From Convolutriloba macropyga (taxonomy: Eukaryota), in contig NC_134476.1 in NCBI RefSeq assembly GCF_964194025.1, forward strand, positions 11,966,001 to 12,030,000: a stretch of 64,000 nt of DNA. Reading direction: 5' to 3'. Positions 12,138 through 40,800 of the stretch are shown here, piece by piece. The position numbers and the translations under genes were made by a program. The notes beneath the pieces are model-generated. The model was not told the origin of the DNA. It made no database searches and saw nothing but the letters and a program-made list of their open reading frames with translations. Every line of letters starts with the position of its first letter. Within the stretch, counting starts at the first letter, position 1.

Positions 12138-12195
<58 letters not shown>

Positions 12196-16847: not shown

Positions 16848-19800
16848 CTAATCACACAATTCTCTTGTCAGATTTATGTAGGAAAATATAGCGAGTGAAA
16901 AAGAAATGGTGAACTACAGCAAACTTTTTGGGCAACCCAGGATGACGTGCGCGACCAAAACCGACCCTGATCAGACCGACTTGGGACGCCCACGGGGGGT
17001 AAACCGCGACCGCTCCACAGAGCCTAAAAAAAACTTTGTCCAAAAAAAACTTTCTATTTCTCGAAGTAAGTACCTCACAATCAAATTTCCCGCATCCGGA
17101 AATTTGAAAACAAACCCAACTTTTAAATTTAAAAAATTTAATCCCTGGCTACAAAGTTCTGTGAACACTCAAAAACGCCTTCACTGAAACTTCGTACCTT
17201 ATTTCACTAGTTTCACCAAGATTATTTTAAATTGATTCGTTTTTGAATTGTTTGAATTGTACTATATTAAAAGCGATTTAGCATCTACTCTTTGGCTAAT
17301 TGCTTGATATGTTACCATTTAACGCTCTTGGGTTCAACAAAGACGCTCGGTAATGTGCGTTCTTACATAATGTTCCGACCCCGCTCATCCACGTTATTTA
17401 ATTGACAAATCAGGAATAAATAGAAAACCTCCGAAAAAATCACATATCGTCTAACAAACAACTGAGTGAAAAAAGTGCTGGTTTAGAGGGCCGATGATAC
17501 ATGCCATTAATGAGAGTACTCGACAAGACAAACGTAAAAATCGAATACTAGGAAACGTTAATGGCGACCAAAATTCGATGTCTGAATTATAAAAGAAAAC
17601 TTAATAACAAAAAAGAATACGGAATCAGATAAAACCTGAATTCAACAAATTAATGTGTACTTCAGCAGATAATATATGAGACCTCTCAATAATGGGACTC
17701 AGTAAGAGGTCGACAAAAAGCGAAACGGGCAAAGTTCAAATATAAGTTTCTATTTTTGAAAACAACAAATTTCACTTTGACTAAAACCAATAAGTATCAA
17801 CTCGACTCATTCGGAATGTTAATTTAATCTTCATGGTAAGCAACTAAGACCTGTCTCAATCAATAATATGTCAGATGGCTACAAAAAGAACGGAAGAAAC
17901 AAAAAAACCATTTAAAATTTTAAAAACGAAACCGTTGTCGTTCATGAATAACCCTAGTTGTCGTGAATTGTGCATCTTTTCGACGCCAATTGTGCCACTA
18001 CATTAGCTTAAAGATGTGACGGCAGACAAAAAAAAATCAGAAATGGACAAACACTCAAAAATTAGAGTATTTTTGCAAAAATGCGTAGCTCCAAAGTCAA
18101 GAAACAATCAGTTGAATATAAAAACCATTAAAAAGACTAGATTAGAAGAAAGACGATAAGACCTTGCTTCACTAAAAAAAGGATGCTACCCGTCAAAATG
18201 AAACATTTCAAAATGAAACAAAACCAGATTAACTTGAGCCTCTCAGAAAGCAAGTTGTGCTTCTTAATATTGAGACTGAATCATAAGACGACAAAAAGAC
18301 AATAAATAACGACAGAACTCAAAATTTCAAAAAGTTTATCGAACCCACAGTTTTGAATCCACTAGAACTATAAGACATTGAAAACCACTAATAAATTAAA
18401 ACTAACATGGGTTCAAAATTTTTGGTGCTTTGATATTCCTCGATTTTAACTGGGTCTTCTTTGTAAAGGGTCTTTGTTGAAAAGTCAACAAAAAGAATCA
18501 GAAATTATATCGAGAACTCACAAGCTTCTTTTAAGACTCTTAAGGCTCTACACAAAACTAATTCCTAAGGCTTTACAGACATAAGTCAAAATTATAATCA
18601 ACACCAGAAACTGTATTTGGAGCAAAAGGAAAATGATGAGCCCTGTCAATAATGATGAGCCCAGGTTTAGTTAGTTGCTGACGACAACGAGAAAAAAATT
18701 GAAGTACAAAAATAATTTCATTAAAAATTACTCTTAACGTCTTCAAAACTGTTAATTATAGACTAGAATCAGTAAAAAATAAACAAATTTTTCATAGAAG
18801 CAATAAAGGTCATATATGCGCCATAAAATGCGCCGTGTGATAACAAAAAGCAACAATCAATGGAAAAAGAAAAAAAGTGCGAGAACTTTTGGGAGAAAAC
18901 GAAATTTTGCAGACATTAAAACTATAAGGTTCTCACTAAAATTTTTAAAAAGACTTTTTTTTCCTCTTTTCACAATTGGAGATGTCCTTAAAGCAATAAT
19001 TTGAACAATTTAAAAGTTAACAATCTCAAATATATGTAAACCTTAAAAAATAACAAAACTTTTAGGAATTGTCGCAGTAAGAAGGCCAAGAAACTATTAG
19101 TTGAATAGAAATCTTCTTGAAGAGGAGTTCCAATTCACTTGGAATAAATGTTGCCCTGTATGGATTGAGACTAGGCTATATGTGGTCACAACTAAGCGGA
19201 CATTTTTTTAAAAAACAAATAGATTCAAAGTCAAAAGAGGACTTACTTAACATCTGAAAGCATTGTTAGGTTCACATATAGCTCTTGAAAAAACCAATTG
19301 TATCACTGATTAATAAGTCAAAGTCATGAGGCTGCATGAAGTATGGCAAAAGAAGGCAAAATAAAATAAACAAAAAGTTTATGAAACATATAGGCAAAGC
19401 CATATAAAATACGAGTTTTACTCTGAAGACAGAATGGTTTTTGGCCTCACTTGGAAGAAAAAAGGATCTTTTTTATTTGGGCCCGGGTTTTAAATCATTC
19501 TTGTGAGTAATCAATAAAAAAATAATTTTTTTTTGAAAAGGACCACCCCCCCCCCAAATAAAAACCGAGTATTTATTGATGGGAAGAATCCAAGATGAGT
19601 CCAAACCTAGCCCTGATTTGCTGCTTGTCCAGCAAAACTTATTATTATTCCATATGTTTGCAAATTAGATCAAATTGTAAAGGAAGTAACTCAAAAACAA
19701 AAATAATTGATGTATTTTGCATAAATTTTAAGTTAATTGTTTGGAAAGCCCGCCAAGTTTTAAATCCAGAGGACTCCCAGAGCAATTAAAACTACAAATA

Positions 19801-22800
19801 TTTTTTGAAGAGTTATTGAAGATATTGGCAGCAGGTATTTGATCTTTACTTTTGCATATTTAAACAAAGTGACACTGAGAAAGGCGTATTTGGAGACATT
19901 TTTGTTTAAAAAACATTGAAATTCGAAAATTATAGCCGAAGTTTTCACCAAAAGACAAAGGTAAAACCAACCCACAAGCCTCCTTCGACCCCAGTAGTAA
20001 CACCAATAACGTTGTTGTTAACAATTTCATCAGTTCGTAGCAAAAAGAAAAAAAACTTTGGTCAAGAAAAACGAAAAGTGTTAATGAAAACAACGGAATT
20101 CCGTCTATTATTCACAAAAAGCAAAAAATTGAACCTCGATAATTCCCTGTAAGAAAAAAAAATCTTTTTGGTTTTCTTTTCTACACTTGACGGGGTTTTC
20201 TAATTATACCAGTTTTAACTCTCTGCGATGAAAACATTGATCGGCCAAAGTTTTCCGAACAAAAAAATGTGAGTATAGAGTCGATCCCCCCCAAGTGGGT
20301 CGGTACATTAAACATAGAATGATATCACTATCATGAAATCAAATGTAGTCTAAAGCTCCACTACACGGGCTATTGGTTTTAATTGTACACAAGTCACGCT
20401 AAATGAAGGTTGAAATGACTAAGGCTTCCATTGCAAACTATTTTACTTATCATTGATGCAAACAACTGCTGGTATTTTTGAAAAAGTTTAATCTTTATTA
20501 AAACACTTTCCTTTAAAAAATCTGATTAGCTAGTCTTTCATTGTTTAGAGAATGGGTTAAAGGTTAAGCTTGATTAGTTTTGTCTTTTTATCAATCAATT
20601 AAATTACGTCGATAAACAGAGTAGCACCTAACTGAAAAAAAGTGGGGTCAAAGAGTGGCTGAAAACATTTTTTGTTTTAACCTCAACATAGCACGTATAT
20701 TTCTTGATCCTCCAAAATACCAAACAAAAGGGAGCTGATAAATTTGAGTAGTGTTCTAAAATGCACTTATTGTCTTGGGTGGGCAAAACTTATGATCTTT
20801 CCAGCTATTTTGTGCGGGGGATAAAAACTTGTTAAAAAGTCACATTTTTGTGAAATTGTTAAAAAATTTGTAAAAACTTAAAAATTTCTGGCGGTCCATA
20901 ATATTCATTTCAAAGTTTAATTTTTCTTAAACACTTACTTAGTCAAAAAAACTATTCATGGTTTTTTAAAAAGTATGTAACTGAGTTGCCTTTTCCTTAT
21001 TTCAATCTCTTGATAACTTAATGTAATATATCGTAAATAAAACGAAAGTCAAAATTTGGTGGTTTTAAGCCGACATCTGATTTTATTTGATGATTTAATT
21101 GACCATTTGTAATGCCAGAGCAGTGAGTGTGGGTAGATAAAAAACTAATAAAAATTGAGTGCCAGGGCTCCACATTGAGAAATATTGTGTCTGGTATGGA
21201 ATTTGCAGCGTCAGAGGTAAAAAGGAAGCAACTTTGCAGAGATTAAGGATGAAATATTCGTATGAAAAGGACAAAATAAATGCTGAAAACAATATGAATT
21301 GTTCCATAAAAGTGCTGGAAAAGTGTTTGAAAGCGTTCAGTAAAGCGATTCATACAACCAGTTTAAATGACGGGAGAATGAACACTTGTGTTTTTTTAGA
21401 GTAAAAATGGTTATTTTTGGACAATTTTGTGCAACAGATTTCCACAAAAACAATTCCATTATGCAAATATTGTTTTGCATTGAAAATGACAACAAATGTA
21501 GGCTGTTAAATTGCGTAACACAAGATGTTTGAGTTAGAATGCAAATGTGAACACGTAACATAGTGTAAAACTTGGGGAAAATTATAGAAAATGACAAAAT
21601 TGTAACCTGAGAAACTGATGTCCGACTGAACCCTACTGCGCAACTTTGGCAAAATGATAGAATGAGCAGACTTTTTCCCTCACATATTCTAAACTAAGTT
21701 TTTTATGAAGTAAATTGTGTTTTTCCTACTTTAATAAACAATTTTCCTCTTCTGTTTTTGTTCTCCTATTGTTTTGATAGCACTAAAAATAACTATCGCT
21801 GTATGTCTACAGTGTGCTTCTATTTTTATCGAACCTGGATTTATTTTGCCTACCATTGATTGGTTGAAAACTGGCTGAAGATTAATTTTTTACTGTTACA
21901 TGTGACAATATATGTTTTTGATTTTTTGTTCAAAAGTTTTGGTCTCGGCGTTTGTGATTGGCTGGCCGAGTTTTAGGAACTATTGTCTACTACATGCGCC
22001 AAAAATGTTTCTTTCATTAGCATTAAAAATTCAGTGTGGTCGTATCCGCTTTCTTGATTGGTCAATCGAGTTCAAGCTTTATTGCCGTCTTGCACCTGTT
22101 TAAACAAGTGTTTTTTATTATCAATGACAAGGTGTAGTCACAAGTTTGAGTTCGTGTTTAAAAAGTGTTATGTCGTCCTCTCACGATCACTTTGATTTTT
22201 ATCACAATATCGCATGTTCAATGGAATGTGTATATTGTTTACTATGCATAAATTAAAACTACAGTGAAAGCAACAATTTAATTTCAAGTGGAATAGGTTG
22301 CGTTGAGACTAAAAACGAATGAAATGTTAGGCTACATAAAGCGAACAAAAGACACAAACAAAATAATTTCCAATCTAGAAGATCCAAGAAACAAAAGAAA
22401 CAATGTCTTTAATTGAGCTTTAGAAGTCGATATCAAGTGTTCGTTTCTTTGGAGCAAAGCAAAGGCTCAATGGTGGCGTCTCAAGACTGCTTCTGGCAAT
22501 TAGGGAAACTTCCGCTACCTCGGGAATTGAGGGAGCTGACGTTGAATCTGGTAGAGGCGAAGTTGCCTGAGTCATAATGCCTGGACATTCGGGGCTGGTT
22601 GGCATCCGCCAAAAAGTCTCGATAGTTTCTAGTTGCCTCCAATAGCCCTCCTGATTTTCGATTAGAGGTCCCTCTTTGATTTCATAGACATATAGAAATT
22701 TCCTTACATTTTCATCTATCGTCTCTGGACTGAAAACAATTTCTCTTACGTAGCCGGTAACATGATTGATCGTGTACTGTGCTCCTTTAATCAGTCCCTT

Positions 22801-25800
22801 CTGAAATCTGCATGATTGGATGTAGTCAAAAATTACATTTGGTAGCGCCATGTGGTTAATTGTAATCCACTCATTGTCCTGCAGCTCTTGTTTAACAATA
22901 ACGACTTTCTTTTTTTTGTAAAATTCATTTGCTATTTTTCTCAAATCGGGATTGGCCCCTTATTTCAGAAAAATTGCCGCCGAAGACATGTTCAAACTTG
23001 GAAGACAAGGTTGCTGTTAAAGAATTGTTGTGGTAGGTTATCAAATCGTAGAAACTTTTGGTAAAATTTTTCTATATAATCAAAATATAAAACAATTTGT
23101 TCTAAAACAAACAAATTTAGTATCAATCTATATAAACTGTGCTCTGCTAGTTTTTGCCACTTTGTGCATGCGAATTGAAGTCAAGTTTTAAAAATAATTA
23201 ACTTGTTAACAATAGAGAAGAAAGAGAAAAAGAAATGATGAAAGACTGTGAAAAGACTTTTATTGTTTGATAGTAATTAAAATTTAAAAAATCAAAACTT
23301 GTTAAGTTAGTCTGTCACTATTATTAGAATGACAAAATCTTATTCCCTCGTTGTTTAAGGATTGTTAATAATGAATGGTTTTCATAATAGATTGTTCAGA
23401 GAAAACCATTAAAAAGTTCTTTTGGTTGCATTTTGATAAGTAAAAAAGACTTGGCATTCATTTTGATCTATCAATTGTTTGTAGAAACTGTTTGAAAAAC
23501 ATTCACTAGAAGTACTAATCCATTTCAACATCTTATTCTGAAAAGTCAGTAAGATTCAACTATTTCCTGCCAGCAAGAGAACACTTTAGCGAGTTGGACT
23601 GCTCTGATCATGATATTGCTCTAAAGTTGCGTCCGTGTGGAATTCTAATTGCAATAGTGAACCTCTAATTGATTCACATTTTACCAGAAAAACTGTGCAT
23701 ACAGCCAACACAGAAATAAACATCATTGCAATATACTACATTTTCATAACCATGTCATTGCTGCTGTGGAGCAACTACCACAGTCGTTCAAGGATACTTC
23801 TAAACCATATACAATACCGTGTCTCTTCACTTGTTTTCAACTGCAAATTCTCGGGTCTTCTCGAACAGTGCGTTATGGCAAAAGCCTGGAAAAACTTCAG
23901 TCAGTTACAACGACCAGCCCAACCTAAATTGTTCAAATTCTAAAAAAAATTTAACAAATGTCAAAAGGATAAAGACAGTGGATGTTTAAACTCAAACTAA
24001 CTTTTTAAGAACTTGTACGATTGATAATTTCTATATCATTTATAATGTTGGTCTGTAAGGTGAGCTTTCCAAAGTACTTTATATATTGAATAGTGGCTAT
24101 GAATGTTTGCATGCTGACAGTAGTTAGACTTTAAAAAATTTAATATGGAATTGAAATCTTTTATTTAAAGTCGTGTTCTTTTGTCGTTGAAGAAAGAATT
24201 GACCAAAAGAGTTAAATAAAATTGTCAGAGCATATGATTAGCGAGGCGTAGCAAATAATTATCGTTCAAATTCATTATCGAAGGTTTTGAGTTGGCTTAA
24301 GTTTGAGTATTTGAGTTTCTTCCTTTTAAAATCGTATCAAACGGCAAAACAATATTCGGTAGTTTTGTATTGAGATTCCAAGCTGATCTGCCACCTAAAC
24401 TTTTCTCTGTGCAGCAAAAGAACCATTCAATGACTTCCGGCATGTTGCAACGCTGAAGCACTGACTATAATAAGACTATGACTCCCTCACTTGTTAGCTT
24501 TTTGGAAATTGTTTGCTGCAAAAACTCTTTAAAAAATAATTCCAATGAATACAATTTCAAAACAAAAAGCGTATTTCATCTTTATCCACTGGTGGGGTAG
24601 GTGATAATGTAGTTCTTTGTCACTTTTCTTCCGGATTAACATAAAAAGTTGAGCTTTTTCGCTCAGAAATAAAGTTTCTACGTTGAGTGCCAAAACTCCG
24701 TCAAATGTTAGTTGAAAGGATTTTGAGCAATTCATAAGTTCTGGATGAAAAAATTATGAGAAGCCTATTGCATTGAAGTTAAGTCAAAAACTAAAACAAA
24801 CTGGTTGGCACAATTGCTCAAAATTATGCGCTGCCCACCTTTGTCAAGAAAATCCAAAGCTTCAAGAGCATTGAAGTAAATGCGGTGGTTAAATCTAGCT
24901 GAAACCGCAGTTCCAACAAAAGATTAACAGTTTTTTTTACAAAAAAATTGGCTCAAATTGATTTTCTGGTAGTGAAAAGGACTAGTGCTATTAATTCCAA
25001 GGTATGCTTGATTTGCTTCCATTGCAATTATCATACAACGCACTGGCAAAAAATGTCCTAATAGCTCCAACTTATTATTCCAGTTGTAGCTAAAAAAAAC
25101 CTTCGTGGCAATACTTCTGGATATTGCCACAGGTGGATAATGCTATTGAAACACGGCAGGTGTTTTTAGTAGAGTTTTTTCAATTTCCGTCAAAACATGA
25201 TCCGCTACTGTTATTTTTCTAACGTACCGATTAGCTTCAATTACTTTATTTTTGTAATGTTTGTTCAAATGGGAAAATACTGTACAAATATTTTGTAGAC
25301 CTAAAAGAAATTCACAAAGTGACAACACAAAGAAAATCTTCATCACAAGTTATCACAAACATAACTCGTCAGCTTTCTAAAAAAATAGTTTTCCTGAGAG
25401 TTAGCTAAACGAGTTTTTCTGGCCGCAACGTCAATCGCGCAACCATCCGTTCCGTCAATTTTAGCTGGTTCGTCCTCATAAAAAAAATCCTGAAAAACTA
25501 GTTATTTGTTTCTTGCAGTTTTTCTAGACAACACTTCAATTTAATTGAAAGCTTTGTTTGCCTTGTTTCCTTTTGTGTAAGAACTTTTAACACTATTTTA
25601 ACGCAGATACAGTGCGTTCTGTAAAAAAACAATGTAGAGCGTTGTTGCTTAAGTATGGCGCGTCTGTGTTTGCAGCGTTAGTGACTGTCCTGCAATCGCC
25701 GTCATTGTTTCGGGAGATTTTTTATTTAATTTCAAACAGAAGTTTATGTAAACAGATGAAAAAGTTTCTGTCGCCCAAAACTTCAAGCTCAAGCTGTGGA

Positions 25801-28800
25801 CCGTCCATGGACAAGGAATATGATTGTCAAACTTTTAAAGTAAAAGCATTGTCAAGAATAATCAGCAGGAAGCTCTTTTTCAAGGAAATCAGGTGTGGTT
25901 TCTGTTGCCTCTGCTGGCAGTAAAATTAAAAACCATTTTGAACATTAGAAAGAAAATTTGAGCAACTGCTCGTCAAAGCAACTTCTTACTAACTCCTTGG
26001 TTTGGTTTATCAACGTTGGTTTTCAATTTAAGTATTCTTCATGTTTTTGATTCGCCCACTTGTGTCCGTACGGTTTTTTTGAACAGTTGATTTTATTGCC
26101 TGTTTTGGATATTTTTCTTTGTAACTACCTCTGCCAGCTCAACAACTGCTTGAACAATTAGTTCACGTCCAATCTTTTTTACTACAAGCCAAAAAATTCT
26201 TCTTGCAATTGGCAACGCGGCTTTGCCAATACCTGCAGCTAAAGCCCCAAATTCAATACCTCATTAGCGACAGTGTCCGGAAATGTATGGTGACACTGAT
26301 TGCTGTTGATAGTAGGCTTCTGTCTAGTCGATCTTTTTAACATTCAAAGTCAAAATAAGCTTTTCTGTTCCAGCGAATGGAACTAATTATCCGGTTTCTG
26401 TACGCAATTGAATTTGAATTGAGTGAAATTTTTTTGACAATAACTTTTTGTATATCAACAATTCTGTGTGTTGGCTCGATTTCGCAGGGGCTACAGTTTT
26501 TCAGGGGTTGTTTTGAATCCATGACTCGGATAGGAGGAGCGTTAGTATCATCTACGTATTAATACTCAATTATGTTAACGTAAACAAAAATCACTTGCTT
26601 CCCTGCAGACAAATAAAAAGGATAATCACCAATGAAAGTTTTTTCTTCGTCATCTGCCATGGTCAGACTTTCAAAGTGTCTAACATGTTTTCTTCAATAT
26701 GATAACGAGACCCATCCTTAAAAATATTGAAACCTAGTATGCATGAAATTTTGTTATCCGGAAAAGTAATTTTTCCGTTTTAACCGAAAATTAGGAGAAA
26801 AACTCCATTGATTTTGTTGAATTGATAGTCAAAATTAGGTATTCCGGTAGCTGTTTTTAAGGATCTCAAAAAATGGTCATGACTTCCATAGTAACCAATT
26901 CCAATGATACCTTGTTCTCCGTATGTTCTGGAGACAGCTTCTAAAAGAATATTTTTCTCATAAAACTTAAGGCCTTCAGAAGGAAATCTCTTCAAATCAA
27001 TTATGTTCGTTGATTTATTTTTGACCGGAGTTTCACCTAGTGTAACTCATTAATGCGCATCTAGATTAATCTCTTCATTGACACAGAGTCCCGAAAGAGC
27101 CCTTAACTTCTGTACCAGCATCTAACAACAGCCTTTTAGTTCGCTTATTTTTTTTAATCATTTTCTTGAAGGCATCGACTGTTGTTGCTGCGTACTTTAA
27201 TTTAAATGATTGGACCCGTAGATAACGTGAGAGACAGTCAACCGCAAGCAACAAGTATTCTACATCTTTGTTCTCTTTTGCTAGCTTATCCACAATAGCT
27301 AAGTCTAGCAACCAAATTCGTCTACGTAGGCAATAATTTTCAGTGTTGGATTTTTGTTCTATACTTCGTATGCTTTGTGTGGGCATTTCTGCTCTCCAGA
27401 AACAAATTCACTCTACTTCAAATTTGTGCTTTTTTGTAGTTTTCCTACGCTTCCGTATGCTGCAGGACCTTTTGTATATATTATCTCGAGTAGTTTTTTT
27501 CCATTCATCAAAAGAGACCCAGTTTTTCTCCTCCTCCTCCTAAGTTCTGTTTTCCTTTGAAGTTCGGAAACCACTTCAGGCATCTACGGATTGCTCTATA
27601 AGTAATTGGCTGATATTTTGTGCTTGATTCTTTTTGGCGAAATAGTTCTCTTTTTAGTTTTTCGTTTGGTAATTCTATGAATTCCTTTCTAGATCGCAAT
27701 TTTAGCGTTACTGTTGATCACGAAGCTTTTTTTTAATGTTTGAAGCCTCTGGAATCTTGAAATAATCTGAATTCCTTTGTTTTTCAGTTGGTTACTGCAA
27801 ATCACAGGGAAAAATGGGATCATTTATTCCTGTTGCTGCTCCGTCAACAATGAGCTTTTTGGTTTCGTCTCTAACAATTTTTCTGACTCTTTAATGAGGT
27901 TAAATAATTTTTCCGTCGTGGCGCTAGCAGGTTAAGATTTTGAAAATTTGGCTCCTATTTTTAACTCAGTGGGATGAGTTGTTTCCCTTGTATCCAAAGG
28001 TTCCAGGTATTCATTTTTTCATTGTTAGTGTTTTCATATGGTCGCATACGACTCAAAAAAGAAAATTGAGCAGCTGTATGATGATTTCTGGGATCATTTA
28101 CAGTTTGTAAGGAATATGGTTGCTCTTTCATGAACTGATTTTTCGGTATCAAATTAAATTTTTCAGCAGTAGACATGGTTTAACTCAAATGGATGAAACA
28201 AAACTTAATAATGAGTTGAATTAGTTCGGAACCGGTTGTTTCTAGTAAAAGCGCTTGTCGTTTATCCATTGAAGAAGTTTTCTTGATAATACCTTCAAAT
28301 ATGTGTCTGTATTTTTCTAAACCTCTTGGTTTCACTCTAACATGACTCAGTAAAATTCTGTGACGGCATTCACATAAAACCAGTATAACATCACAATCAC
28401 AACTACGTATATAATTCCTTAACTGTTTTGGTTGTAAATACCCCATTTGCTTAGCTACAGACAATTTTTTCTCTATCATTGTTCAGATGGGTTAATTCTG
28501 CTTTATCAAATTGAAGATAGAACAATGTAGGACCTGGCTTAGTAACATTTCAACAGTATCGTGAACAATTAGAATTTTTTGGATCAATATCGATAAGCAA
28601 ATGCCCAAACCGTTCGTTCGTTGCCAATTGATAGCAATGCTTTAAAAATATAACAAGTTTTAACAGCTTGCCTAAAAATTCGACTGGTCAAATATTGCCG
28701 GCTGATTTGGACAAAATGTTGTGTTGCGTTCAAGTCTATTGTAAGAGACCAGTTGCTCTGTTGACAAAACTCTGCTTTATATAAATACCATTATTGTTTT

Positions 28801-31800
28801 TCTGACACCCTGCAGTGGCCAACTTAACAAATTCTTTGTCATTATAAATTTCTTCGCAGGATTCATCGATTATCAAAAGAAAGTTTGCAAGGCTATTCAA
28901 AAATTCTAAGTTAGCATACTTTTTGAAAACAACTCCAATTTTTTCCTCATTTTGATGTATACTTGTTGCATTGCCCGGTATAAAAAATTAATGTGTTTAA
29001 ATTTTTGGTAAAAATTAATTCAACTCAACATTTTGAAAACTGACTCTGCTTTGCCACATTCTGATGGCCCTACAACGGCCATGAAAACCTATCTTGAGTA
29101 GATATAAATTTATGCATAGTCTTTGGTTGGGTGAAATACGTCCAATTAAAATTGACAATATGGGTATCCAAACTGAAGTTTCTTCCCAATTTGATTTTGA
29201 CCCTGTTAATTCAACAATGCAAATTGATATTAGCAGTCATATATCAAACATTTGCACAAAAAATACATGTTTTGACGATGGCAAAGTTGTTTAATTACAA
29301 AGTTTCCCCAGAAAATCTGCTACTACTTACTTTTTCAAAAAAAAAATTCTTCTACGACAGCATCAATTGTTACTCCCTCTATCTCATAAAAATACGAAAA
29401 TTTGTTGAAATAATATAAAAATGATATCAGTTTAAATAAAAGAACTCAAGAATTAATTGTTTGTACAAAGCTCTGCAATTGATTGACATACGAAAAACTC
29501 AATATTTCCTCTAAGTACTTGTATATGAAATTCATGAGCGATTATATATTTCATTCCGCAAATGCCGATTTATTCTTGCTGTCTTATAATTTTCAATATC
29601 AATTTCAGAGTATTGAAAAAGCCCTTAAGTTCTGTACCAGCATCTACCCACAAATTTAGGTTTCTTATTTTTCACCCTTGTTTCATGAAGGCATCGCCTG
29701 TTGATCTGGCGAACTTTATTTTTAACAATTTGACCGGTAGATAACGTGAGAGACAGTCAACCGCAATCAACAAATACTCTACATCTCTGTTCTTTTGTGC
29801 TAATTTATCCAATTGAGTAAAGTATAGCGACAAAATTTTTGTTTATGTGGTACGCAATAACTTTCAGTGCTGGATTTCTTCCAATTTTTCTTATGCTTTC
29901 GGCAAATTCTTTGTCATTATAAATTTCGTCGCACATGTCATCGATTATCAAAAGAAAGTTTACAAGGCTATTCAAAAATTCTAAGTTGGCATAATTTTTG
30001 AAAACAACTCCAATTTTTTCCTCATTTTGATGTATATTTGTTGCATTGCCCTGTATAAAAATTTATTGTGTTTAAATTTTGGGTAAAAATTAATTCAATT
30101 CAACATTTTGAAAACTGACTCTGCTTTGCCACATCCTGAAGGCCCTACAACAGCCATGAAAACCTATCTTGAGTAGATATAAATTTATGCATAGTCTTTG
30201 GTTGGGTGAAATGCGTCCAATTAAAATTGACAATATGGATATCCAAACTGAAGTTTCTTCCCAATTTAGTTTTGACCCTGTTAATTCAACAATGCAAATT
30301 GATATTAGCAGTAATATATCAAACATTTGCACAAAAAAATACAAAATTTGACGATGGCAAAGTTGTTTGGTTCCAAAATTTCCCAGACGATCTGCTACTA
30401 CTTACTTTTTCAAAAAAATTTCTACAACAACATCAATTGTTACTCCAACCATCTCAAAATAATATGAAAAATTGTCGAAGGAATATAAAATTGATATCAA
30501 TTTATATAAAAGAACTCAAGAATTAATTGTTTGTACAATGCAAAGCTCTGCAGTTGACTGATATACGAAAAAAATTAATTTTTCCTCTAAGTACTTGTAT
30601 ATCAAATTCAAGAGCGATTAAATATTTCATTCCACAAATGCCGATTTATTCTTGCTGTCTTATAATTTTCAATATCGATTTCAGAGTATTGAAAAAGCCC
30701 TTAAGTTCTTTACCAGTATCTACCCACAAATTTAGGTTTCTTATTTTTCACCCTTGTTTCATGAAGGCATCGCCTGTTGATCTGGCGTACTTTATTTTCA
30801 ACAATTTGACCGGTAGATAACGTGAGAGACAGTCAACCGCAATCAACAAATACTCTACATCTTTGTTCTTTTGTGCTAATTTATCCAATTGAGTCAAGTT
30901 TAGCGACAAAATTTTTGTTTATGTGGTACGCAATAACTTTCAGTGCTGGATTTTTTCCAATTTTTCTTATGCTTTCGGCAAATTCTTTGTCATTATAAAT
31001 TTCATCGCACAAGTCATCGATTATCAAAAGAAAGTTTACAAGGCTTTTCAAAAATTCTAAGTTGGCATACTTTTTGAAAACAACTCCAATTTTTTCCTCA
31101 TTTTGATGTATATTTGTAGCATTGCCCTGTATAAAAATTTATTGTGTTTAAATTTTGGGTAAAAATTAATTCAATTCAACATTTTGAAAACTGACTCTGC
31201 TTTGCCACATCCTGAAGGCCCTACAACGGCCATGAAAACCTATCTTGAGTAGATATAAATTTATGCATAGTCTTTGGTTGGGTGAAATGCGTCGAATTAA
31301 AATTGACAATATGGATATCCAAACTGAAGTTTCTTCCCAATTTGGTTTTGACCCTGTTAATTCAACAATGCAAATTGATATTAGCAGTAATATATCAAAC
31401 ATTTGTACAAACAAATGCAAAATTTGACGATGGCAAAGTTGTTTGGTTACAAAATTTCCCAGACGATCTGCTACTACTTACTTTTTCAAAAAAATTTCTA
31501 CGACAGCATCAATTGTTACTCCATCCATCTCAAAATAATATGAAAAATTGTTGAAGGAATATAAAATTGATATCAATTTATATAAAAGAACTCAAGAATT
31601 AATTGTTTGTACAAAGCAAAGCTCTGCAATTGACTGATATACGAAAATATCAATTTTTCCTCTAAGTACTTGTATATCAAATTCAGGAGCGATTAAATAT
31701 TTGATTCCACAAATGCCGATTTATTCTTGCTGTCTTATAATTTTCAATATCGATTTCAGAGTATTGAAAACGCCCTTAAGTTGTTTACCAGTATCTACCC

Positions 31801-34800
31801 ACAAATTTAGGTTTCTTATTTTTACCATTTTCATGAAAGCATCGGCTGATGTTCTGGCGTACTTTGATTTCAATGATCTGACCAGTAGATAACGTGAGAG
31901 ACAGTCAACCGCAACCAACAAGTACTCTACAACTTTGTTCTTTTGTGCTAATTTATCCACATGAGTCAAATACTCAAAATTAAGCCAACTCAAAACCAGA
32001 ACTCAAAATTCAGTGTCGGTTTTTGAATTTGTATCGCGCAAGTGATGTTTGGTTACGAATTTCCTTCGATAATGAATATGAACGATAATTATTTGCTACG
32101 CTTCGCTAATTATATGCTCTGACAATTTTAATTAACTCTTTTGCTCAATTCTTTCTTCAAAGACAACAAAAGAACACGACTTTAAATAAAAGATTTCAAT
32201 TCCATATTAAATTTTTTAAAATCAAACTACTGTCAGCATGCAAACATTCATAGCCACTATTCAATATATAAAGTACTTTGGAAAGCTCACCCTACAGACC
32301 AACATTATATATAATATAAAAATTATCAATCGTACAAGTTCTAAAAAAGTTAGTTTGAGTTTAAACATCCACTGTCTTTATCCTTTTGACATTTGTTAAG
32401 TTTTTTTAGAATTTTAACAATTTAGATTGGGCTGGTCGTTGTAACTGACTGAAGTTTTTCGAGGCTTTTGCAATAACGCACTGTGCGAGAAGACCCGAGA
32501 ATTTGCAGTTGAAAACAAGTGAAGAGACACGGTATTGTATATGGTTTAGAAGTATCCTTGAACGACTGTGGTAGTTGCTCCACAGCAGCAATGACATGGT
32601 TATGAAAATGTAGTATATTGCAATGATGTTTATTTCGGTGTTGGCTGTATGCACAGTTTTTCTGGTAAAATGTGAATCAATTTGAGGTTCACTATTGCAA
32701 TTAGAATTCCACACGGACGCAACTTTAGAGCAATATCATGATCAGAGCAGTCCAACTCGCTAAAGTGTTCTCTTGCTGCAGGAAAAAGTTGAATCTTACT
32801 GACTTTTCAGAATAAGACATTGAAATGGATCAGGACCTCTGGTGAATGTTTTTCAAACAGTTTCTACAAACAATTGATAGATCAAAATGAATGCCGAGTC
32901 TTTTTTACTTATCAAAAAGCAACCTAAAGAACTTTTTAATGGTTTTCTCTGAACAATCTATTATCAAAACCATTTACTATTAACAATCCTTGAACAACGA
33001 GGGAATAAGATTTTGTCATTCTAATAATAGCGACAGACTAACTTATCAAGTTCTGATTTTTTAAATTTTAAATACTATCAAACAATAACTGCGATGCTAA
33101 TTGCATTCTCTTTTCAGCTTACTATACAAAAAGTTAAACTTCAAAATTTGTTGTTTTCTGACTGGCTAAGATAAAAACCAAATATATCCAACCATTAAGG
33201 CTTATATGACAAGTGTAGTTTTGAGCTATTGTTAGGAGCAACACAGCTAAACATGTAGAAAAAACAATCCAACACAAATTATCTTAACCTTCATTTCTTG
33301 CATACTGTTTGATTACTCACAAAATCCAAATCTTTGCTCGACAACTGAAACTTTAAATTGTTTCCAAAGTCTTTTCACAGTCTTTCATCATTTCTTTTTC
33401 TCTTTCTTCTCTATTGTTTACAAGATAATTATTTTCAAAACTTGACTTCAATTCGCATCCACAAAGTGGCAAAAACTAGCAGAGCACAGTTTATATAGAT
33501 TGATACTAAATTTGTTTGTTTAAGAACAAATTGTTTTATCTTTTGATTATAAAGAAAAATTTTACCAAAAGTTTCCACGATTTGATAACCTACCACAACA
33601 ATTCTTTAACAGCAACCTTTTCTTCCAAGTTTGAACATGTCTTCGGCGGCAATTTTTCTGAAATAAGGGGCCAATCCCGATTTGAGAAAAATAGCAAATG
33701 AAACTTAAAATGGAACTAAAATGGAACAAAAAAAGAAAGTCGTTATTGTTAAACAAGAGCTGCAGGACAATGAGTGGATTACAATTAACCACATGGCGCT
33801 ACCAATTGTAATTTTTGACTACATCCAATCATGCAGATTTCAGAAGGGACTGATTAAAGGAGCACAGTACACGATCAATCATGTTACCGGCTACGTATGA
33901 GAAATTGTTTTCAGTCCAGACACGATAGATGAAAATGTAAGGAAAATTCTATATGACTATGAAATCAAAGAGGTACCTCTAATCGAAAATCAGGAGGGCT
34001 ATTGGAGGCAACTAGAAACTATTGAGACTTTTTGGCGGATGCCAACCAGCCCCGAATGTCCAGGCATTACAACTCAGGCAACTTCGCCTCTACCAGATTC
34101 AACGTCAGCTCCCTCAATTCCCGAGGTAGCGGAAGTTTCCCTAATTGCCAGCAGCAGTCTTGAGACGCCACCATTGAGCCTTTGCTTTGCTCCAAAGAAA
34201 CGAACACTTGATATCGACTTCTTAAGCTCAATTAAAGACATTGTTTCTTTTGTTTCTTGGATCTTCTAGATTGGAAATTATTTTGTTTGTGTCTTTTGTT
34301 CGCTTTATAGAGCCTAACATTTCATTCTTTTTTAGTCTCAACGCAACCTATTCCACTTGAAATTAAATTGTTGCTTTCACTGTAGTTTTAATTTATGCAC
34401 AGTAAACAATATACACATTCCATTGAACATGCGATATTGTGATAAAAATCAAAGGAATCGTGAGAGGACGACATAACACTTTTTAAACACGAACTCAAAC
34501 TTGTGACTACACATTGTCTTTGATAATAAAAGACACGTGTTTAAACAGGTGCAAGACGGCAATAAAGCTTGAACTCGATTGACCAATCAAGAAAGCGGAT
34601 ACGACCACACTGAATTTTTAATGCTAATGAAAGAAACATTTTTGGCGCATGTAGTAGACAATAGTTCCTAAAACTCGGCCAGCCAATCACAAACGCCGAG
34701 ACCAAAACTTTTGAACAAAAAATCAAAAACATATATTGTCACATGTAACAGTAAAAAATTAATCTTCAGCCAGTTTTCAACCAATCAATGGTAGGCAAAA

Positions 34801-37800
34801 TAAATCCAGGTTCGATAAAAATAGAAGCACACTGTAGACATACAGCGATAGTTATTTTTAGTGCTATCAAAACAATAGGAGAACAAAAACAGAAGAGGAA
34901 AATTGTTTATTAAAGTAGGAAAAACACAATTTACTTCATAAAAAACTTAATTTAGAATATGTGAGGGAAAAAGTCTGCTCATTCTATCATTTTGCCAAAG
35001 TTGCGCAGTAGGGTTCAGTCGGACATCAGTTTCTCAGGTTACAATTTTGTCATTTTTTATAATTTTCCCCAAGTTTTACACTATGTTACGTGTTCACATT
35101 TGCATTCTAACTCAAACATCTTGTGTTACGCAATTTAACAGCCTACATTTGTTGTCATTTTCAATGCAAAACAATATTTGCATAATGGAATTGTTATTGT
35201 GGAAATCTGTTGCACAAAATTGTCCAAAAATAACCATTTTTACTCTAAAAAAAACACAAGTGTTCATTCTCCCGTCATTTAAACTGGTTGTATGAATCGC
35301 TTTACTGAACGCTTTCAAACACTCTTTCAGTACTTTTTTGGAACAATTCATATTGTTTTCAGCATTTATTTTGTCCTTTTCATATGAATATTTCATCCTT
35401 AGTTTCTGCTTTCTTTTTACGCCTGACGCTGCAAATTTCATACCAGACACAATATCTCTCAATGTGGTGCCCTGGCACTCAAGTTTTATTAGTTTTTTAT
35501 CTGCCCACACTCACTGCTCTGGCATTACAAATGGTCAATTCAATCATCAAATAAAACCAGATGTCGGCTTAAAACCACCAAATTTTGATTTTCGTTTTAT
35601 TTACGATATATTACATTAAGTTATCAAGAGATTGAGATAAAGAAAAGGCAAGTCAAATACATGCTTTTTATAAAACCATAAATATTTTTTTTTGACAAAG
35701 AAAGTGTTTAAGAAAATTTAAACTTTGAAATGAATATTATGGACCGCCAGAAATTTTTAAGTTTTTACAAATTTTTTAACAATTTCACAAAAATGTGACT
35801 TTTTAACAAGTTTTTATCCCCCGCACAAAATAGCTGGAAAGATCATAAGTTTTGCCCACCCAAGACAATAAGTGCATTTTAGAACACTACTCAAATTTAT
35901 CAGCTCCCTTTTGTTTGGTATTTTGGAGGATCAAGAAATATACGTGCTATGTTGAGGTTAAAACAAAAAATGTTTTCAGCCACTCTTTGACCCCACTTTT
36001 TTTCAGTTAGGTGCTACTCTGTTTATCGACGTAATTTAATTGATTGATAAAAAGACAAAACTAATCAAGCTTAACCTTTAACCCATTCTCTAAACAATGA
36101 AAGACTAGCTAATCAGATTTTTTAAAGGAAAGTGTTTTAATTTATAAAGATTAAACTTTTTCAAAAATACCAGCAGTTGTTTCCATCAATGATAAGTAAA
36201 ATAGTTTGCAATGGAAGCCTTAGTCATTTCAACCTTCATTTAGCGTGACTTGTGTACAATTAAAACCAATAGCCCGTGTAGTGGAGCTTTAGACTACATT
36301 TGATTTCATGATAGTGATATCATTCTATGTTTAATGTACCGACCCACTTGGGGGGGATCGACTCTATACTCACATTTTTTTGTTCGGAAAACTTTGGCCG
36401 ATCAATGTTTTCATCGCAGAGAGTTAAAACTGGTATAATTAGAAAACCCCGTCAAGTGTAGAAAAGAAAACCAAAAAGATTTTTTTTCTTACAGGGAATT
36501 ATCGAGGTTCAATTTTTTGCTTTTTGTGAATAATAGACGGAATTCCGTTGTTTTCATTCACACTTTTCGTATTTCTTGACCAAAGTTTTTTTTTCTTTTT
36601 GCTACAAACTGATGAAATTGTTAACAACAACGTTATTGGTGTTACTACTGGGGATAAAGGAGGCTTGTGGGTTGGTTTTACCTTTGTCTTTTGGTGAAAA
36701 CTTCGGCTATAATTTTCGAATTTCAATGTTTTTTAAACAAAAATGTCTCCAAATACGCCTTTCTCAGTGTCACTTTGTTTAAATATTCAAAAGTAAAGAT
36801 CAAATACCTGCTGCCAATATCTTCAATAACTCTTCAAAAAATATTTGTGGTTTTAATTGCTCTGGGAGTCCTCTGGATTTAAAACTTGGCGGGCTTTCCA
36901 AACAATTAACTTAAAATTTATGCAAAATACATCAATTATTTTTGTTTTTGAGTTACTTCCTTTACAATTTGATCTAATTTGCAAACATATGGAATAATAA
37001 TAAGTTTTGCTGGACAAGCAGCAAATCAGGGCTAGGTTTGGACTCATCTTGGATTCTTCCCATCAATAAATACTCGGTTTTTATTTGGGGGGGGGGGGGG
37101 GCTGGTCCTTTTCAAAAAAAAATTATTTTTCTATTGATTACTCACAAGAATGATTTAAAACCCGGGCCCAAATAAAAAAGATCCTATTTTCTTCCAAATG
37201 AGGCCAAAAACCATTCTGTCTTCAGAGTAAAACTCGTATTTTATATGGCTTTGCCTATATGTTTCATAAACTTTTTGTTTATTTTATTTTGCCTTCTTTT
37301 GCCATACTTCATGCAGCCTCATGACTTTGACTTATTAATCAGTGATACAATTTGTTTTTTCAAGAGCTATATGTGAACCTAACAATGCTTTCAGATGTTA
37401 AGTAAGTCCTCTTTTGACTTTGAATCTATTTGTATTTTTAAAAAATGTCCGCTTAGTTGTGACCACATATAGCCTAGTCTCAATCCATACAGGGCAACAT
37501 TTATTCCAAGTGAATTGGAACTCCTCTTCAAGAAGATTTCTATTCAACTAATAGTTTCTTGGCCTTCTTACTGCGACAATTCTTAAAAGTTTTGTTATTT
37601 TTTAAGGTTTACATATATTTGAGATTGTTAACTTCAAATTGTTCAAATTATTGCTTTAAGGACATCTCCAATTGTGAAAAGAGATGAAAAAAAAGTCTTT
37701 TTAAAAATTTTAGTGAGAACCTTATAGTTTTAATGTCTGCGAAACTGCACAAAATTGTCCAAAAATAACCATTTTTACTCTAAAAAAACACAAGTGTTTC

Positions 37801-40800
37801 CTCAATGTTCATTCTCCCGTCATTTAAACTGGTTGTATGAATCGCTTTACTGAACGCTTTCAAACACTCTTTCAGTACTTTTTTGGAACAATTCATATTG
37901 TTTTCAGCATTTATTTTGTCCTTTTCATATGAATATTTCATCCTTAGTTTCTGCTTTCTTTTTACGCCTGACGCTGCAAATTTCATACCAGACACAATAT
38001 CTCTCAATGTGGTGCCCTGGCACTCAAGTTTTATTAGTTTTTTATCTGCCCACACTCACTGCTCTGGCATTACAAATGGTCAATTCAATCATCAAATAAA
38101 ACCAGATGTCGGCTTAAAACCACCAAATTTTGATTTTCGTTTTATTTACGATATATTACATTAAGTTATCAAGAGATTGAGATAAAGAAAAGGCAAGTCA
38201 GTTACATGCTTTTTATAAAACCATGAATAGTTTTTTTTTGACAAAGAAAGTGTTTAAGAAAATTTAAACTTTGAAATCAATATTATGGACCGCCAGAAAT
38301 TTTTAAGTTTTTACAAATTTTTTAACAATTTCACAAAAATGTGACTTTTTAACAAGTTTTTATCCCCCGCACAAAATAGCTGGACAGATCATAAGTTTTG
38401 CCCACCAAAAAAATTTGGCATAAATTTCACAAGTTTTTCTCAACGCACAAAATTTGGAAATATTTTAGTTTTTGTCCCCCATAAATTTGAGAAAATTTGT
38501 AAAGTTTTTGTCCTCCCGGCACAAATCGAGAAAACTTTTACAAGTTTTTGTCCCTCCGGCAAAATCGAGGGACAAATTTTTTGACACCCAAAAAATGCAC
38601 CGCACGAATCGTAACGGTGTGGTACGTCCCCACCCGCGACAAAATGTTTTGGTCGATTGTTCACGGGTCACTTCCCCTGTGACAATACGCATTTTAGTAT
38701 ACTAATAATTTGTTTCGAATAAAACTGAACAGAGAAAGAGTGAATTTTTGAGATACATTCAGTCTGGCTACAAACGATTTTATTAGTCCTAATTATCAAA
38801 AAGTTTCCTTCAAAAAGTAGCTCGTAGAAAACAGGAAAACAAAAAAGTTACCCGTGCTTGCATTAATTTTTAGAATTAAGAATTTGGTGAGAGATGACAA
38901 CACTATTAATAGCTACAATTAAACTATAACAAAAGATAGTTCTACTAAATTAATTCAAAATTTATTATTTGATTCCATGCCATGAATGGTGCCGACTGAA
39001 ATAATCACCCTCATCATCAGTACTCGCTGTGTAATAAACTTTAAAACTTTGTTGTGTGAGATCACATAAAAAATCGCTTTTTGGCATTCAAGTTTTCGAA
39101 TTGTCCGGACACGCGAAAAAATGGCAATTACATGAATTTCTCCGGTTGGGCATTGTTTTCTGTTTGCTGTTCCAATGATACATGTCAACGTGTACATTAG
39201 GCAGAAATGAAACACAACTGTACTGGTAAATAATTGCATAAATCTCCCTGAAATTGTTTTGCGGTTCTAATTAAGCCCTAATTGCTGATTGGCACCCAAT
39301 GATAGTTTGGATCACGAGGAAGTCATTATATTTATTCAAGAAATCAATAAAATTCAAACGAGTTTCCAATAGCATTTAATGGCAAGTTTTAAGCTAAGCA
39401 TACATATTTTTCAGGCGGATCAGACCAGAATTTATTGGGACCAATTTTCGTTAGACAATCAAATTCTTTGTACAGTTTTCTAGGAAATATCTTATAGAAA
39501 CAAATTACATTGCGCTGGCTGTAGAATTCAAAAAAGGACTATTTCTTGCCAGGAATCAAGTGACCAACTAAAAGTTCTCATAAAAAGATGGCCCAATTTT
39601 TAAATAAAACTAGACACAAAAAGTCGCTATTTTCAAAACTGTCGACTTTGGCTGTCTAGCTTTTTTAAAAATTTTAATAAGTTATAAGTTTTTATGTTTT
39701 TTTAATGTTAGTTTTGCAAGTTTTATTACTGCAATTTTAGGAAAAACATCCAGTAAAAACTAACTAGGCTCAAGTTCCGCGGCTGTCATGTTGCCATCCG
39801 GATCTTGGAAGAACTTCTCGACGCCCCCCAACACAGTGCAGGCCAGGTATTCTGCATCGTGGGTCTGTACTTGCGGGTCGTCCTGTCTCAGTGTGAAATA
39901 CATTGAGAAGCAGGGGGTTCCGGGCACCGTCAAATCCATTCCCTGCCCAGCTGTTACGGCCTCAGCAGTGCATGAACTCATTCCTAATCTGTCCATGAAT
40001 GCTGCCGAGTCGTCAAATTGGTACATGTACATGCTCAAGTTGGCACTCATTCCCAACTTGCCTAAAATCATAAATTCCTTGGGTCATCATTTGGCGTCAG
40101 GACAATTTACCCAATTTCCCGACTTTACCCAATGCCATTATACCGAGTGTCAATATGCCCAACCTGGCTGCCGTATTACCCAATGCCATTTTGCCAATGT
40201 TAACTTTGTTTTACCCTGTCGTTAAAATTACCAGAATGACTATTTTGACATAAAACTGCTCGTGGCACTTGATATGAACTATGTATCATTAAATACTGCT
40301 TGTCATGCTATTCTAACTTCACTGCTTAATTTGGCCTTGAATTGATTTGCTATTAGAGAAGCGGAAAAAAATCGAAGGTTAAAGGTATACTATCTCTGTA
40401 CAAATTGTTCCAAATTTCTGATTCATGCTATCCACATTTCTCAAAATATCTTAAGCAAAAGGCCATTTGTTTTCCCAAAAGTGTGAACCTTTAAGAAACC
40501 TGCATTACAATCTAATATCCGAAAACAAAAAAGAATATAAATAAAAGCTGCCACAGACATTGGTGAATTTAACTCAGGGCACCAACTAACTGGGCAGCAG
40601 CTAAATTTTTACTCAAGTATATTCAACTTTTCTCCGTCATTGATCATGACTGCTGTTAGAATTTCGATCAAACTATAGTCTTGAACTTAGTTAGATTTAT
40701 TAAAAAGAAAGTTTAACTTACCAGATTAATAAGACATGAGCAAACTGATTCTAGTCACAAAACTTTTATGAACGAATCGTCAATAAATGGTGCTTAGAAT

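What the first reader, a model, noticed from the sequence alone, without database searches (positions are those of the whole stretch)
16848..39764. Gene B appears intact across a 22.9-kb intron filled by a viral palindrome
Seen: exon 2 (ends 39765, phase 1) has no nearby exon 3. The only matching terminal exon is 22,917 bp away, joins in frame (ELEP-K-IDMYTQ) and gives a length within 1 aa of gene A, whose equivalent intron is 2,838 bp. No exon has a disabling lesion. Inference: the gene tolerated nested insertions, and pairing of the arms would shorten the effective donor-acceptor distance to about 4 kb, possibly helping splicing.
Basis: partly seen in the sequence, partly recalled or inferred. 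Interest (0 to 1): 0.7.

Follow-up and report, generated by a model that had tools for sequence, protein, structure and literature searches.

The report
Intact gene, Maverick-filled palindromic intron
In an acoel worm, a gene for a predicted cell-surface protein keeps three unbroken exons and is likely still spliced across a 22.9-kb intron that grew when a virus-like transposon landed in it and later mirrored part of itself; the mirror is real but probably a by-product rather than a splicing aid.

Summary
Observation confirmed. Gene B (minus strand) has three open exons and a 22,917-bp GT-AG intron. RefSeq XP_075253855.1 (Convolutriloba macropyga) has the same ELEP-K-IDMY join, and a homologue on a 1.4-kb contig aligns across it without a gap. 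The intron is about 2.0 kb of host DNA, a 3.0-kb HINE-like repeat and one rearranged, polymerase-less Maverick/Polinton-like element (20747-38707, target duplication AATTTG). That element has decayed by about 10%, yet its arms differ by only 3.1% (inner) and 0.9% (outer). So the palindrome was made or renewed long after insertion, in two steps; the outer step copied 1.8 kb of non-viral DNA. Another family copy shows the same flank mirroring (1 of 8 readable). Intact exons and allele differences (5 silent, 3 replacement) indicate a live gene. No RNA data could be laid, so splicing is inferred. Arm pairing as a splicing aid is untested and not favoured: the stem base lies 2 kb from each splice site. 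'Within 1 aa of gene A' rests on an acceptor that RefSeq does not use. The scan noted similar things elsewhere in this genome. Ordinary kind of feature.

The parts
42298..42448 (-). Gene B exon 1 coding part (signal peptide-like start, CxxCxxC); RefSeq opens the frame 33 codons earlier, at 42547
39765..40061 (-). Gene B exon 2 (phase 1-1; donor GTTAGT)
16848..39764 (-). Gene B intron 2, 22,917 bp: 17,967 bp Maverick-like element incl. duplicated target, 2,976 bp HINE-like repeat, 1,974 bp remainder
16237..16847 (-). Gene B exon 3: last Cys pair of the Cys-rich domain, SEA-like domain with RRAKR, hydrophobic tail, stop
17336..20311 (.). Element Y: old, high-copy, non-coding repeat with short subterminal inverted repeats (HINE/Helentron-like, unconfirmed)
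20741..20746 (+). Left target-site duplication AATTTG
38708..38713 (+). Right target-site duplication AATTTG
20747..38707 (.). One decayed, rearranged, polymerase-less Maverick/Polinton-like element; left end AGTAGT followed after 28 bases by loss of about 265 bases, right end ACTAAT (family ACTACT)
18905..24314 (+). Left arm of the palindrome: 18905-20746 non-viral (part of Y and host intron), 20747-24314 element-derived
31966..37744 (-). Right arm: inner part 3.1% from the left arm, outer part (mirror of 18905-20920) 0.9%
24315..31965 (-). Spacer, 7,651 bp: broken protease, putative capsid genes, integrase and ATPase on gene B's strand
28828..31972 (.). Three tandem units of about 1,075 bp holding ATPase and integrase fragments (91-96% alike)
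37746..38707 (.). Outer remainder of the right terminal repeat; 37746-38409 duplicates 35211-35863 around the mirrored flank
49324..49483 (-). Paralog A exon 1 (RefSeq starts at 49537)
47690..47965 (-). Paralog A exon 2
44232..44821 (-). Paralog A exon 3 with the RefSeq acceptor (alternative AG gives start 44851)

Best explanation
Gene B has three open exons around a 22.9-kb intron made of host DNA, a HINE-like repeat and one broken Maverick-like element, and is likely a live gene spliced by ordinary long-intron splicing, with the palindrome probably a neutral scar of two later inverted duplications. Steps: (1) shown: about 2.0 kb of the intron is neither Y nor the element. (2) Shown: Y and the element are inserted; the element's 6-bp target duplication survives. 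(3) Inferred from divergence: the element has decayed here by roughly 10%. (4) Inferred: at about 1.5% per arm, a repair or replication template switch anchored in the terminal repeats made the two ends mirror images for about 3.5 kb. (5) Inferred from a mosaic terminal repeat: at about 0.45% per arm, a second switch copied 18905-20920 in inverted form into the right terminal repeat and duplicated about 0.5 kb of it. (6) Inferred: the gene stayed under purifying selection throughout. The pre-mRNA would be able to form a stem of about 5.4 kb; A-to-I editing or small RNAs are its likely by-products, not a needed splicing aid. The protein is predicted to be secreted and surface-anchored: Cys-rich N-terminal domain, SEA-like domain with a furin-type site, hydrophobic tail.
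For: RefSeq protein with the same three exons and join. Homologue P0006 (354 aa, 1,382-bp contig) aligns at 40% with no gap at the join; P0008 cluster on 1.5-1.6-kb contigs is collinear too. No other family exon in the intron. Second allele has both exon ORFs open; 5 silent and 3 replacement differences, P=0.017 against a neutral 0.78 replacement share. Element versus natural copy L027: dN 0.14, 23 stops and 27 frameshifts in 4,011 bases; five other copies dN 0.035-0.053 with 6-16 lesions in about 5.1 kb. A neutral CDS stayed intact in 0 of 3,000 simulations at 8% and at 10%. Arms: 105/3,353 inner against 18/2,014 outer differences, Fisher p=2.4e-8. Terminal-repeat mosaic. Junction private to this copy, 2 of 40 scored matches. 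Copy on C12 has 502 bp of mirrored flank in place of a target duplication.
Against: No transcript across 39765/16847 was seen; the support behind the RefSeq model is not visible to these tools. At 1.2-2.2% divergence (the age of the arms) a dead gene would still look intact in 13-30% of simulations, so recent loss is not excluded by the open frame alone; the allele test rests on 8 sites from truncated tables. The intron is long for this genome: 0 of 37 adjacent-exon gaps in myosin genes exceed 14.3 kb. Its splice signals look weak (donor GTTAGT; 6 pyrimidines in 17 upstream of the acceptor) and it holds 37 AATAAA on the transcribed strand. The fresh element had terminal repeats of about 2 kb, so some pairing potential has existed at most times. 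The 10% age assumes decay happened at this site, not in a defective parent.
Confidence: 0.78

Rival explanations
1. Gene B is live and the paired arms matter: the stem loops out 18.8 kb, holds the transcript together past cryptic poly(A) sites and brings donor and acceptor within about 4 kb; the two duplications that renewed the arms were favoured by selection.
For: 49 perfect helices of 30 bases or more, 4,430 bases in all; a 1-kb piece has a duplex energy of -1,662 kcal/mol. Weak-looking splice sites, 37 AATAAA in the intron, 12 in the loop. Pairing was renewed twice as the original repeats decayed. PMC8052449 (passages) proposes that structure plus co-transcriptional splicing could rescue intronic cleavage, as a hypothesis.
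Against: The stem base is 2,057 and 2,020 bases from the splice sites; PMC8052449's RNA-bridge screen used 50 bases. Arms carry 94 mismatches, 35 G-U changes and 15 indels including 278 and 67 bases. Similar events occur in other copies: mirrored flank in 1 of 8 readable copies, terminal repeats 0.3% apart in copy C7b. Pairing does not shorten the transcription time from donor to acceptor.
Confidence: 0.1
2. Gene B is silenced or truncated now: it survived the insertion, but the young giant stem or cryptic poly(A) sites end most transcripts in the intron, and the exons have had too little time to decay.
For: An open frame is expected in 13-30% of cases after 1.2-2.2% neutral change. Exon 2 runs into a stop right after the donor (P0004). 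Poly(A) signals in the intron.
Against: RefSeq models the spliced form. Allele differences lean silent, 5:3, P=0.017. Both alleles keep open exons.
Confidence: 0.09
3. The palindrome or the long intron is an assembly artefact (fold-back read or mis-joined haplotypes).
For: Inverted duplications are a known long-read artefact (own knowledge). Outer arm divergence (0.9%) is near the allele divergence seen here (about 1-2%).
Against: No N in the window. Arms differ by 129 substitutions and large indels. The outer junction is in short-read contigs of 3 of 4 runs. Contigs of two alleles span the element-host junction at 38707. The target duplication brackets the whole element. Exon 2 and exon 3 ORFs are on record on contigs of equal length (162,843; 158,474) from another source.
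Confidence: 0.03

Closest known systems
Vertebrate Mavericks/Polintons (Barreat and Katzourakis 2021, PMC8097293; passages seen)
   Same: Terminal inverted repeats, (AGT)2//(ACT)2 ends, 6-bp target duplication, integrase, packaging ATPase and protease; mostly degraded copies (96% in that paper).
   Different: No protein-primed polymerase in this copy or in 11 family copies; family 13-15 kb with repeats of 1.2-2.1 kb, against 402 +/- 276 bp in that paper; this copy has arms of 5.4-5.8 kb that include host DNA; capsid genes not confirmed.
RefSeq LOC142345605 / XP_075253855.1 (Convolutriloba macropyga, uncharacterized)
   Same: The same gene model, letter for letter, including the join across this intron.
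   Different: RefSeq starts 33 codons earlier and names no function; nothing seen here describes the intron's contents.
Long-range intronic pairings, RNA bridges and loop-outs (PMC8052449; passages seen)
   Same: Complementary regions within one pre-mRNA that could pair and loop out sequence; links to editing and intronic polyadenylation.
   Different: Those are short, conserved, and for bridges within 50 bases of an exon or binding site; these arms are kilobases long, young, unconserved and 2 kb from the splice sites.
HINE / DINE-1 non-autonomous Helentrons (PMC4067079; passages seen)
   Same: Element Y is interspersed, non-coding, high-copy, with short subterminal inverted repeats.
   Different: The position of the 3' stem-loop and an autonomous partner were not established.
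SEA-domain surface proteins (MUC16 SEA, TMPRSS6)
   Same: Residues 215-346 of the predicted model match a SEA domain best (1ivz, Z 8.8, rmsd 4.3, 118 aligned).
   Different: Tied with an M16 peptidase domain (Z 8.3); no Pfam hit for B; a basic RRAKR site stands where cleavage would be expected; a Cys-rich domain precedes it.

Membership tests
Maverick/Polinton | Terminal inverted repeats | tested here: met
   11 of 11 fetched copies have inverted repeats of 1.2-2.1 kb; the window copy has them, rearranged.
Maverick/Polinton | (AGT)2//(ACT)2 ends | tested here: met
   Readable in 8 of 11 copies; window: AGTAGT at 20747, ACTAAT at 38702-38707, one mismatch.
Maverick/Polinton | 6-bp target-site duplication | tested here: met
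   AATTTG on both sides in the window; perfect in 7 of 8 readable copies, the eighth has a mirrored flank.
Maverick/Polinton | Retroviral-like integrase | tested here: met
   Pfam rve above cut-off in 4 of 4 copies scanned; broken homologues in the window.
Maverick/Polinton | Packaging ATPase and adenovirus-type protease | tested here: met
   Pox_A32 in 3 of 4 copies (at or over cut-off in 2) and Peptidase_C5 over cut-off in 3 of 4; broken homologues in the window.
Maverick/Polinton | Major and minor capsid proteins | tested here: inconclusive
   453-aa and 227-aa ORFs lie between integrase and protease; no Pfam, PDB-sequence or PHROG match, no match in four polymerase-bearing loci; not folded. 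The labels rest on position and size (recalled).
Maverick/Polinton | Protein-primed DNA polymerase B | tested here: not met
   A 940-aa polymerase ORF from this genome finds nothing in the window or in 11 copies at E<0.001 (it does find 4 of 4 polymerase loci); no Pfam hit among 53 ORFs of 4 copies. Filed as Maverick-like, polymerase-less, not as a canonical member.
RNA bridge / functional long-range intronic pairing | Complementary regions in one pre-mRNA | tested here: met
   97.6% matching arms in one intron.
RNA bridge / functional long-range intronic pairing | Close to the splice site or regulator it serves | tested here: not met
   About 2 kb on each side against 50 bases in the screen of PMC8052449.
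RNA bridge / functional long-range intronic pairing | Conserved across species with compensatory changes | not testable with these tools
   No related genome is held; within the genome the arms are private to this copy.
RNA bridge / functional long-range intronic pairing | Splicing changes when pairing is broken | not testable with these tools
   Needs minigenes or alleles.
HINE / Helentron (element Y) | Subterminal inverted repeats, no coding capacity | tested here: met
   TTCCGACCC near the left end and GGGTCGGAA near the right end in aligned copies, one mismatch in the window copy; no Pfam hit at E<=0.05 in its fragments.
HINE / Helentron (element Y) | 3' stem-loop, T-rich target, autonomous Rep/helicase partner | tested here: inconclusive
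   A short C-run/G-run hairpin overlaps the right repeat; partner and target not examined.
SEA domain (gene B exon 3) | Ferredoxin-like SEA fold or Pfam PF01390 | tested here: inconclusive
   Best fold match is a SEA domain, Z 8.8, tied with other ferredoxin-like folds; Pfam none for B, E 0.077 below cut-off for homologue P0013.
Ly6/uPAR three-finger domain (N-terminal domain) | Cysteine pattern ending in CxxxxCN and three-finger fold | tested here: inconclusive
   Cysteines in exons 1, 2 and 3, ending CETDDCN; resemblance recalled; no Pfam hit; this part was barely tested in the fold search.

The most novel reading that the evidence does not exclude
A dead virus-like transposon became a splicing scaffold: as its terminal repeats decayed, two inverted duplications renewed a 5.4-kb RNA stem, and the host kept them because the stem carries gene B's transcript past cryptic poly(A) sites to its last exon; the same stem could also feed small RNAs against the element family (140 of its 2,024 perfect 21-mers match at least one of 11 other copies).
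Probability: 0.1. Interest if true: 0.65.

Novelty: new member of a known kind. Interest (0 to 1): 0.27.

Why it matters
As it stands: a clean example of a host gene surviving an 18-kb virus-like insertion, and of terminal repeats seeding mirror duplications that pull in host DNA. It also warns that terminal-repeat identity can understate a Maverick's age several-fold (3% between arms, about 10% decay). If arm pairing proved necessary for splicing, it would be a natural test of whether long-range RNA structure lets genes tolerate large insertions.

Tried and rejected
No RNA holder listed for the exon 1-2 region; this says nothing on expression. Laying contigs of four runs showed no empty site, but contigs show presence only and the tables were cut; depth was not used as copy number. 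Word-index protein searches found no relative beyond the gene's own cluster and P0008. The Atlas held neither P0002 nor P0008. Folding P0002 without an alignment failed (mean pLDDT 36.7); with 14 rows it reached 62.6; Foldseek gave only generic ferredoxin-like matches. Rfam: 0 matches in 16000-50000. No ratchet-type AG-GT site by a strict pattern in the intron. The deaminase gene on C3 spans 52 kb between profile positions 45 and 145, but its middle exons were not found, so it gives no intron length. Rejected: palindrome as the element's native terminal repeat (junction private, non-viral DNA included); nested insertion (Y and the element are adjacent); another exon 3 in the intron. The order of the inner rearrangement (left copied from right, or internal inversion then right copied from left) could not be settled. 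Paper searches for 'long intron + inverted repeat + effective distance + splicing' (0 papers), for terminal-repeat-anchored inverted duplication (1 unrelated) and for Polintons in introns (1 unrelated) found no description of this case; the library is partial.
Full report
Setting. The window is G000:C9:11966001-12030000 of a 1.18-Gb genome. A look-up of the exon-3 protein returned a RefSeq protein named Convolutriloba macropyga (an acoel worm) on a contig of 67,910,806 bases, the length of C9.

1. The gene. On the minus strand, exons 42448-42298, 40061-39765 and 16847-16237 join into 352 codons with no stop. Both introns are phase 1 and GT-AG; intron 2 is 22,917 bp; the join reads ELEP-K-IDMYTQ. 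Paralog A upstream has the same layout; exon 2 matches exon 2 (score 88) and exon 3 matches exon 3 (72), each above 300 of 300 shuffles. RefSeq XP_075253855.1 is this model letter for letter, with 33 more residues from an earlier ATG. I cannot see what supports that model; that it rests on RNA reads is an inference. Five outside homologues were found. P0006 (354 aa on a 1,382-base contig) aligns at 127 of 317 identities with no gap across the join, and the P0008 cluster lies on 1.5-1.6-kb contigs; these look like cDNAs. A profile of those five ranks the six exons of A and B first among 3,845 fragments in 84 kb, in order (B: positions 4-27, 24-112, 119-300), with none of 8 listed hits in the intron.

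2. The protein. Signal peptide-like start, a Cys-rich domain whose cysteines lie in all three exons and end in CETDDCN in exon 3, then a domain holding RRAKR, then a hydrophobic tail. Pfam finds nothing. A model from a 14-row alignment has mean pLDDT 62.6, higher in exon 3. Its best fold match is a SEA domain (1ivz, Z 8.8, rmsd 4.3, 118 residues), tied with an M16 peptidase domain (8.3); homologue P0013 has a weak SEA hit (E 0.077). The three-finger (Ly6/uPAR) reading of the first domain and a GPI anchor are recalled resemblances, untested. If the first domain is one fold, exon 2 needs exon 3 to complete it.

3. What fills the intron. Element Y (17336-20311) is a high-copy non-coding repeat, 64-80% alike to other copies, with short subterminal inverted repeats, like HINEs as described in PMC4067079 (passages); this label is unconfirmed. 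The larger element runs from AGTAGT at 20747 to ACTAAT at 38707 and is bracketed by AATTTG on both sides. Eleven copies fetched from G000 are 13-15 kb with inverted repeats of 1.2-2.1 kb; 8 have readable AGTAGT/ACTACT ends and 7 of these a perfect 6-bp duplication. ORFs of 4 of the copies hit integrase, A32-type ATPase and adenovirus-type protease. These are Maverick features in PMC8097293 (passages). The polymerase is missing from the window and all 11 copies, and the capsid genes are assigned by position only. I therefore call it Maverick-like and polymerase-less. Without the two elements the intron is 1,974 bp.

4. The palindrome. Arms 18905-24314 and 31966-37744 differ at 129 of 5,404 sites, with 15 indels. 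Family copies read T-a-b-c-g-d-e-f-h-T; the window reads T-a-b-c-f(inverted) at both ends, around inverted e and d and three tandem 1,075-bp units; g and h are lost. The c|f junction occurs only in the two arms among 40 scored of 295 candidates. Inner arms differ by 3.0-3.3% in all three segments (105/3,353), outer arms by 0.9% (18/2,014; Fisher p=2.4e-8). The inner right terminal repeat is a mosaic: like the left one next to the mirrored flank, like the outer right one further in (26 substitutions private to the left copy, 3 and 3 to the others). That is what a template switch from the right repeat to the left flank at 18905, and back by homology, would leave. The junction is in short-read contigs of X1, X2 and X4, and contigs of two alleles span the element's right end, so it is not an assembly artefact.

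5. Ages. The window copy is 14.9-18.1% from the 11 copies, which are 3.7-9.4% from each other. Against natural copy L027 it has dN 0.14 and dS 0.30, with 23 stops and 27 frameshifts in 4,011 bases; five other copies have dN 0.035-0.053 and 6-16 lesions in about 5.1 kb (one of 7 ORFs had no hit in the window, and stops near indels may be over-counted). The excess dN points to about 10% neutral decay. Two integrase fragments inside the copy differ at 58 of 288 sites, which fits. The arms are thus several times younger than the insertion, if the decay happened here. The copy on C12 has 502 bp of mirrored flank in place of a target duplication, so such events recur in the family.

6. Is gene B alive? 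A neutral coding sequence stayed intact in 0 of 3,000 simulations at 8% and 10% change, 0.9% at 5%, 13% at 2.2% and 30% at 1.2%. So B was under selection for most of the time since the insertion; the open frame alone says less about the time since the arms formed. For that, the second allele helps: 5 silent and 3 replacement differences in exons 2 and 3, P=0.017 against a neutral share of 0.78. Caveats: the difference tables were cut (156 and 178 rows not shown), exon 1 was not scored, and I assume the protein and contig variants are one allele (they share D to E).

7. Does pairing help? The arms could pair strongly (49 perfect runs of 30 or more) and 4,077 bases would lie outside the stem. 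Against a need: the stem base is 2 kb from each splice site, while the RNA-bridge screen in PMC8052449 used 50 bases (passages); the arms are young, private and eroding; similar events occur in other copies. For a possible role: the intron is long for this genome (37 adjacent-exon gaps in myosin genes, from 69 of 70 hits with one overlapping row dropped: median 2.3 kb, maximum 14.3 kb; 18 gaps with missed exons reach 22.4 kb), the splice signals look weak, 37 AATAAA lie on the transcribed strand, and terminal repeats gave some pairing from the start. PMC8052449 states the rescue of intronic cleavage by structure as a hypothesis. In the acoel Symsagittifera roscoffensis the mean intron is 2.5 kb and 61% of the genome is repeats (PMC9911081, passages). 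I put the scaffold reading at 0.1. Editing or dicing of the stem is a plausible side effect: three editase-domain loci exist, and 140 of 2,024 perfect 21-mers match at least one of the 11 copies.

8. Earlier notes of this scan (unchecked AI notes) describe, elsewhere in this genome, a polymerase-less Maverick with a folded terminus (e1-9909988), a Maverick in an intron (e1-9940790) and a one-off mirror duplication in a dead transposon (e1-8632890). None was found near this window or by sequence. Papers: passages of PMC9911081, PMC8097293, PMC8052449 and PMC4067079; search listings only for the rest; no supplements were read.

Verdict. The gene is already modelled in RefSeq and is likely live. 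The palindrome is a real, two-step rearrangement of an old Maverick-like insertion and probably neutral. New member of a known kind; interest 0.27.

Noticed in passing
G000 copies L016-L031, L048-L063: The element belongs to a high-copy family (525 candidates) of 13-15 kb with integrase, ATPase and protease but no polymerase between its ends; one small ORF has an H-Y-H motif and the terminus folds better than shuffles (z -4.05, though not as one long hairpin in this decayed copy). Unrelated polymerase-bearing elements are common in G000 (77 matches).
   Followed up: partly
L051-L052, G000:C12 about 19985974-20001739: A family copy has 502 bp of mirrored flank (97.4%) instead of a target duplication: the same kind of event as in the window.
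   Followed up: partly
copy C7b (L026, L027, L063): Terminal repeats only 0.3% apart in a copy 6.7-9.4% from the others: recent insertion of a sub-family or renewed repeats.
   Followed up: no
window 44821 and 44851: Gene A exon 3 has two in-frame acceptors 30 bases apart; RefSeq uses the downstream one, which aligns better with homologues.
   Followed up: yes
window 11418-16292: Old tandem duplications just downstream of gene B, including a decayed copy of B's last codons and 3' region at 14314-14524.
   Followed up: partly
window 2018-4589: A second, reversed copy of element Y.
   Followed up: partly
G000:C11:51909356 (L014) and G000:C1928:11236 (L015): Exons like B and A exon 2: further distant paralogs; their other exons were not found in 20 kb of C11.
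   Followed up: partly
window 5362-9845 (-) and 53170-54759 (+): Two non-LTR retrotransposons with reverse transcriptase (Pfam RVT_1).
   Followed up: no
window 59985-60389 (-): Exon of a mitochondrial carrier gene (Pfam Mito_carr).
   Followed up: no
window 46086-46268 and 40927-41276: Short repeats of very high copy number in A's intron 2 and B's intron 1.
   Followed up: no
G000 C8:46.90 Mb, C8:22.64 Mb, C3:66.62-66.68 Mb: Three loci with an adenosine-deaminase (editase) domain; which are ADARs was not determined.
   Followed up: no
window 42297 and 39764: Both introns of gene B start with GTTAGT.
   Followed up: no
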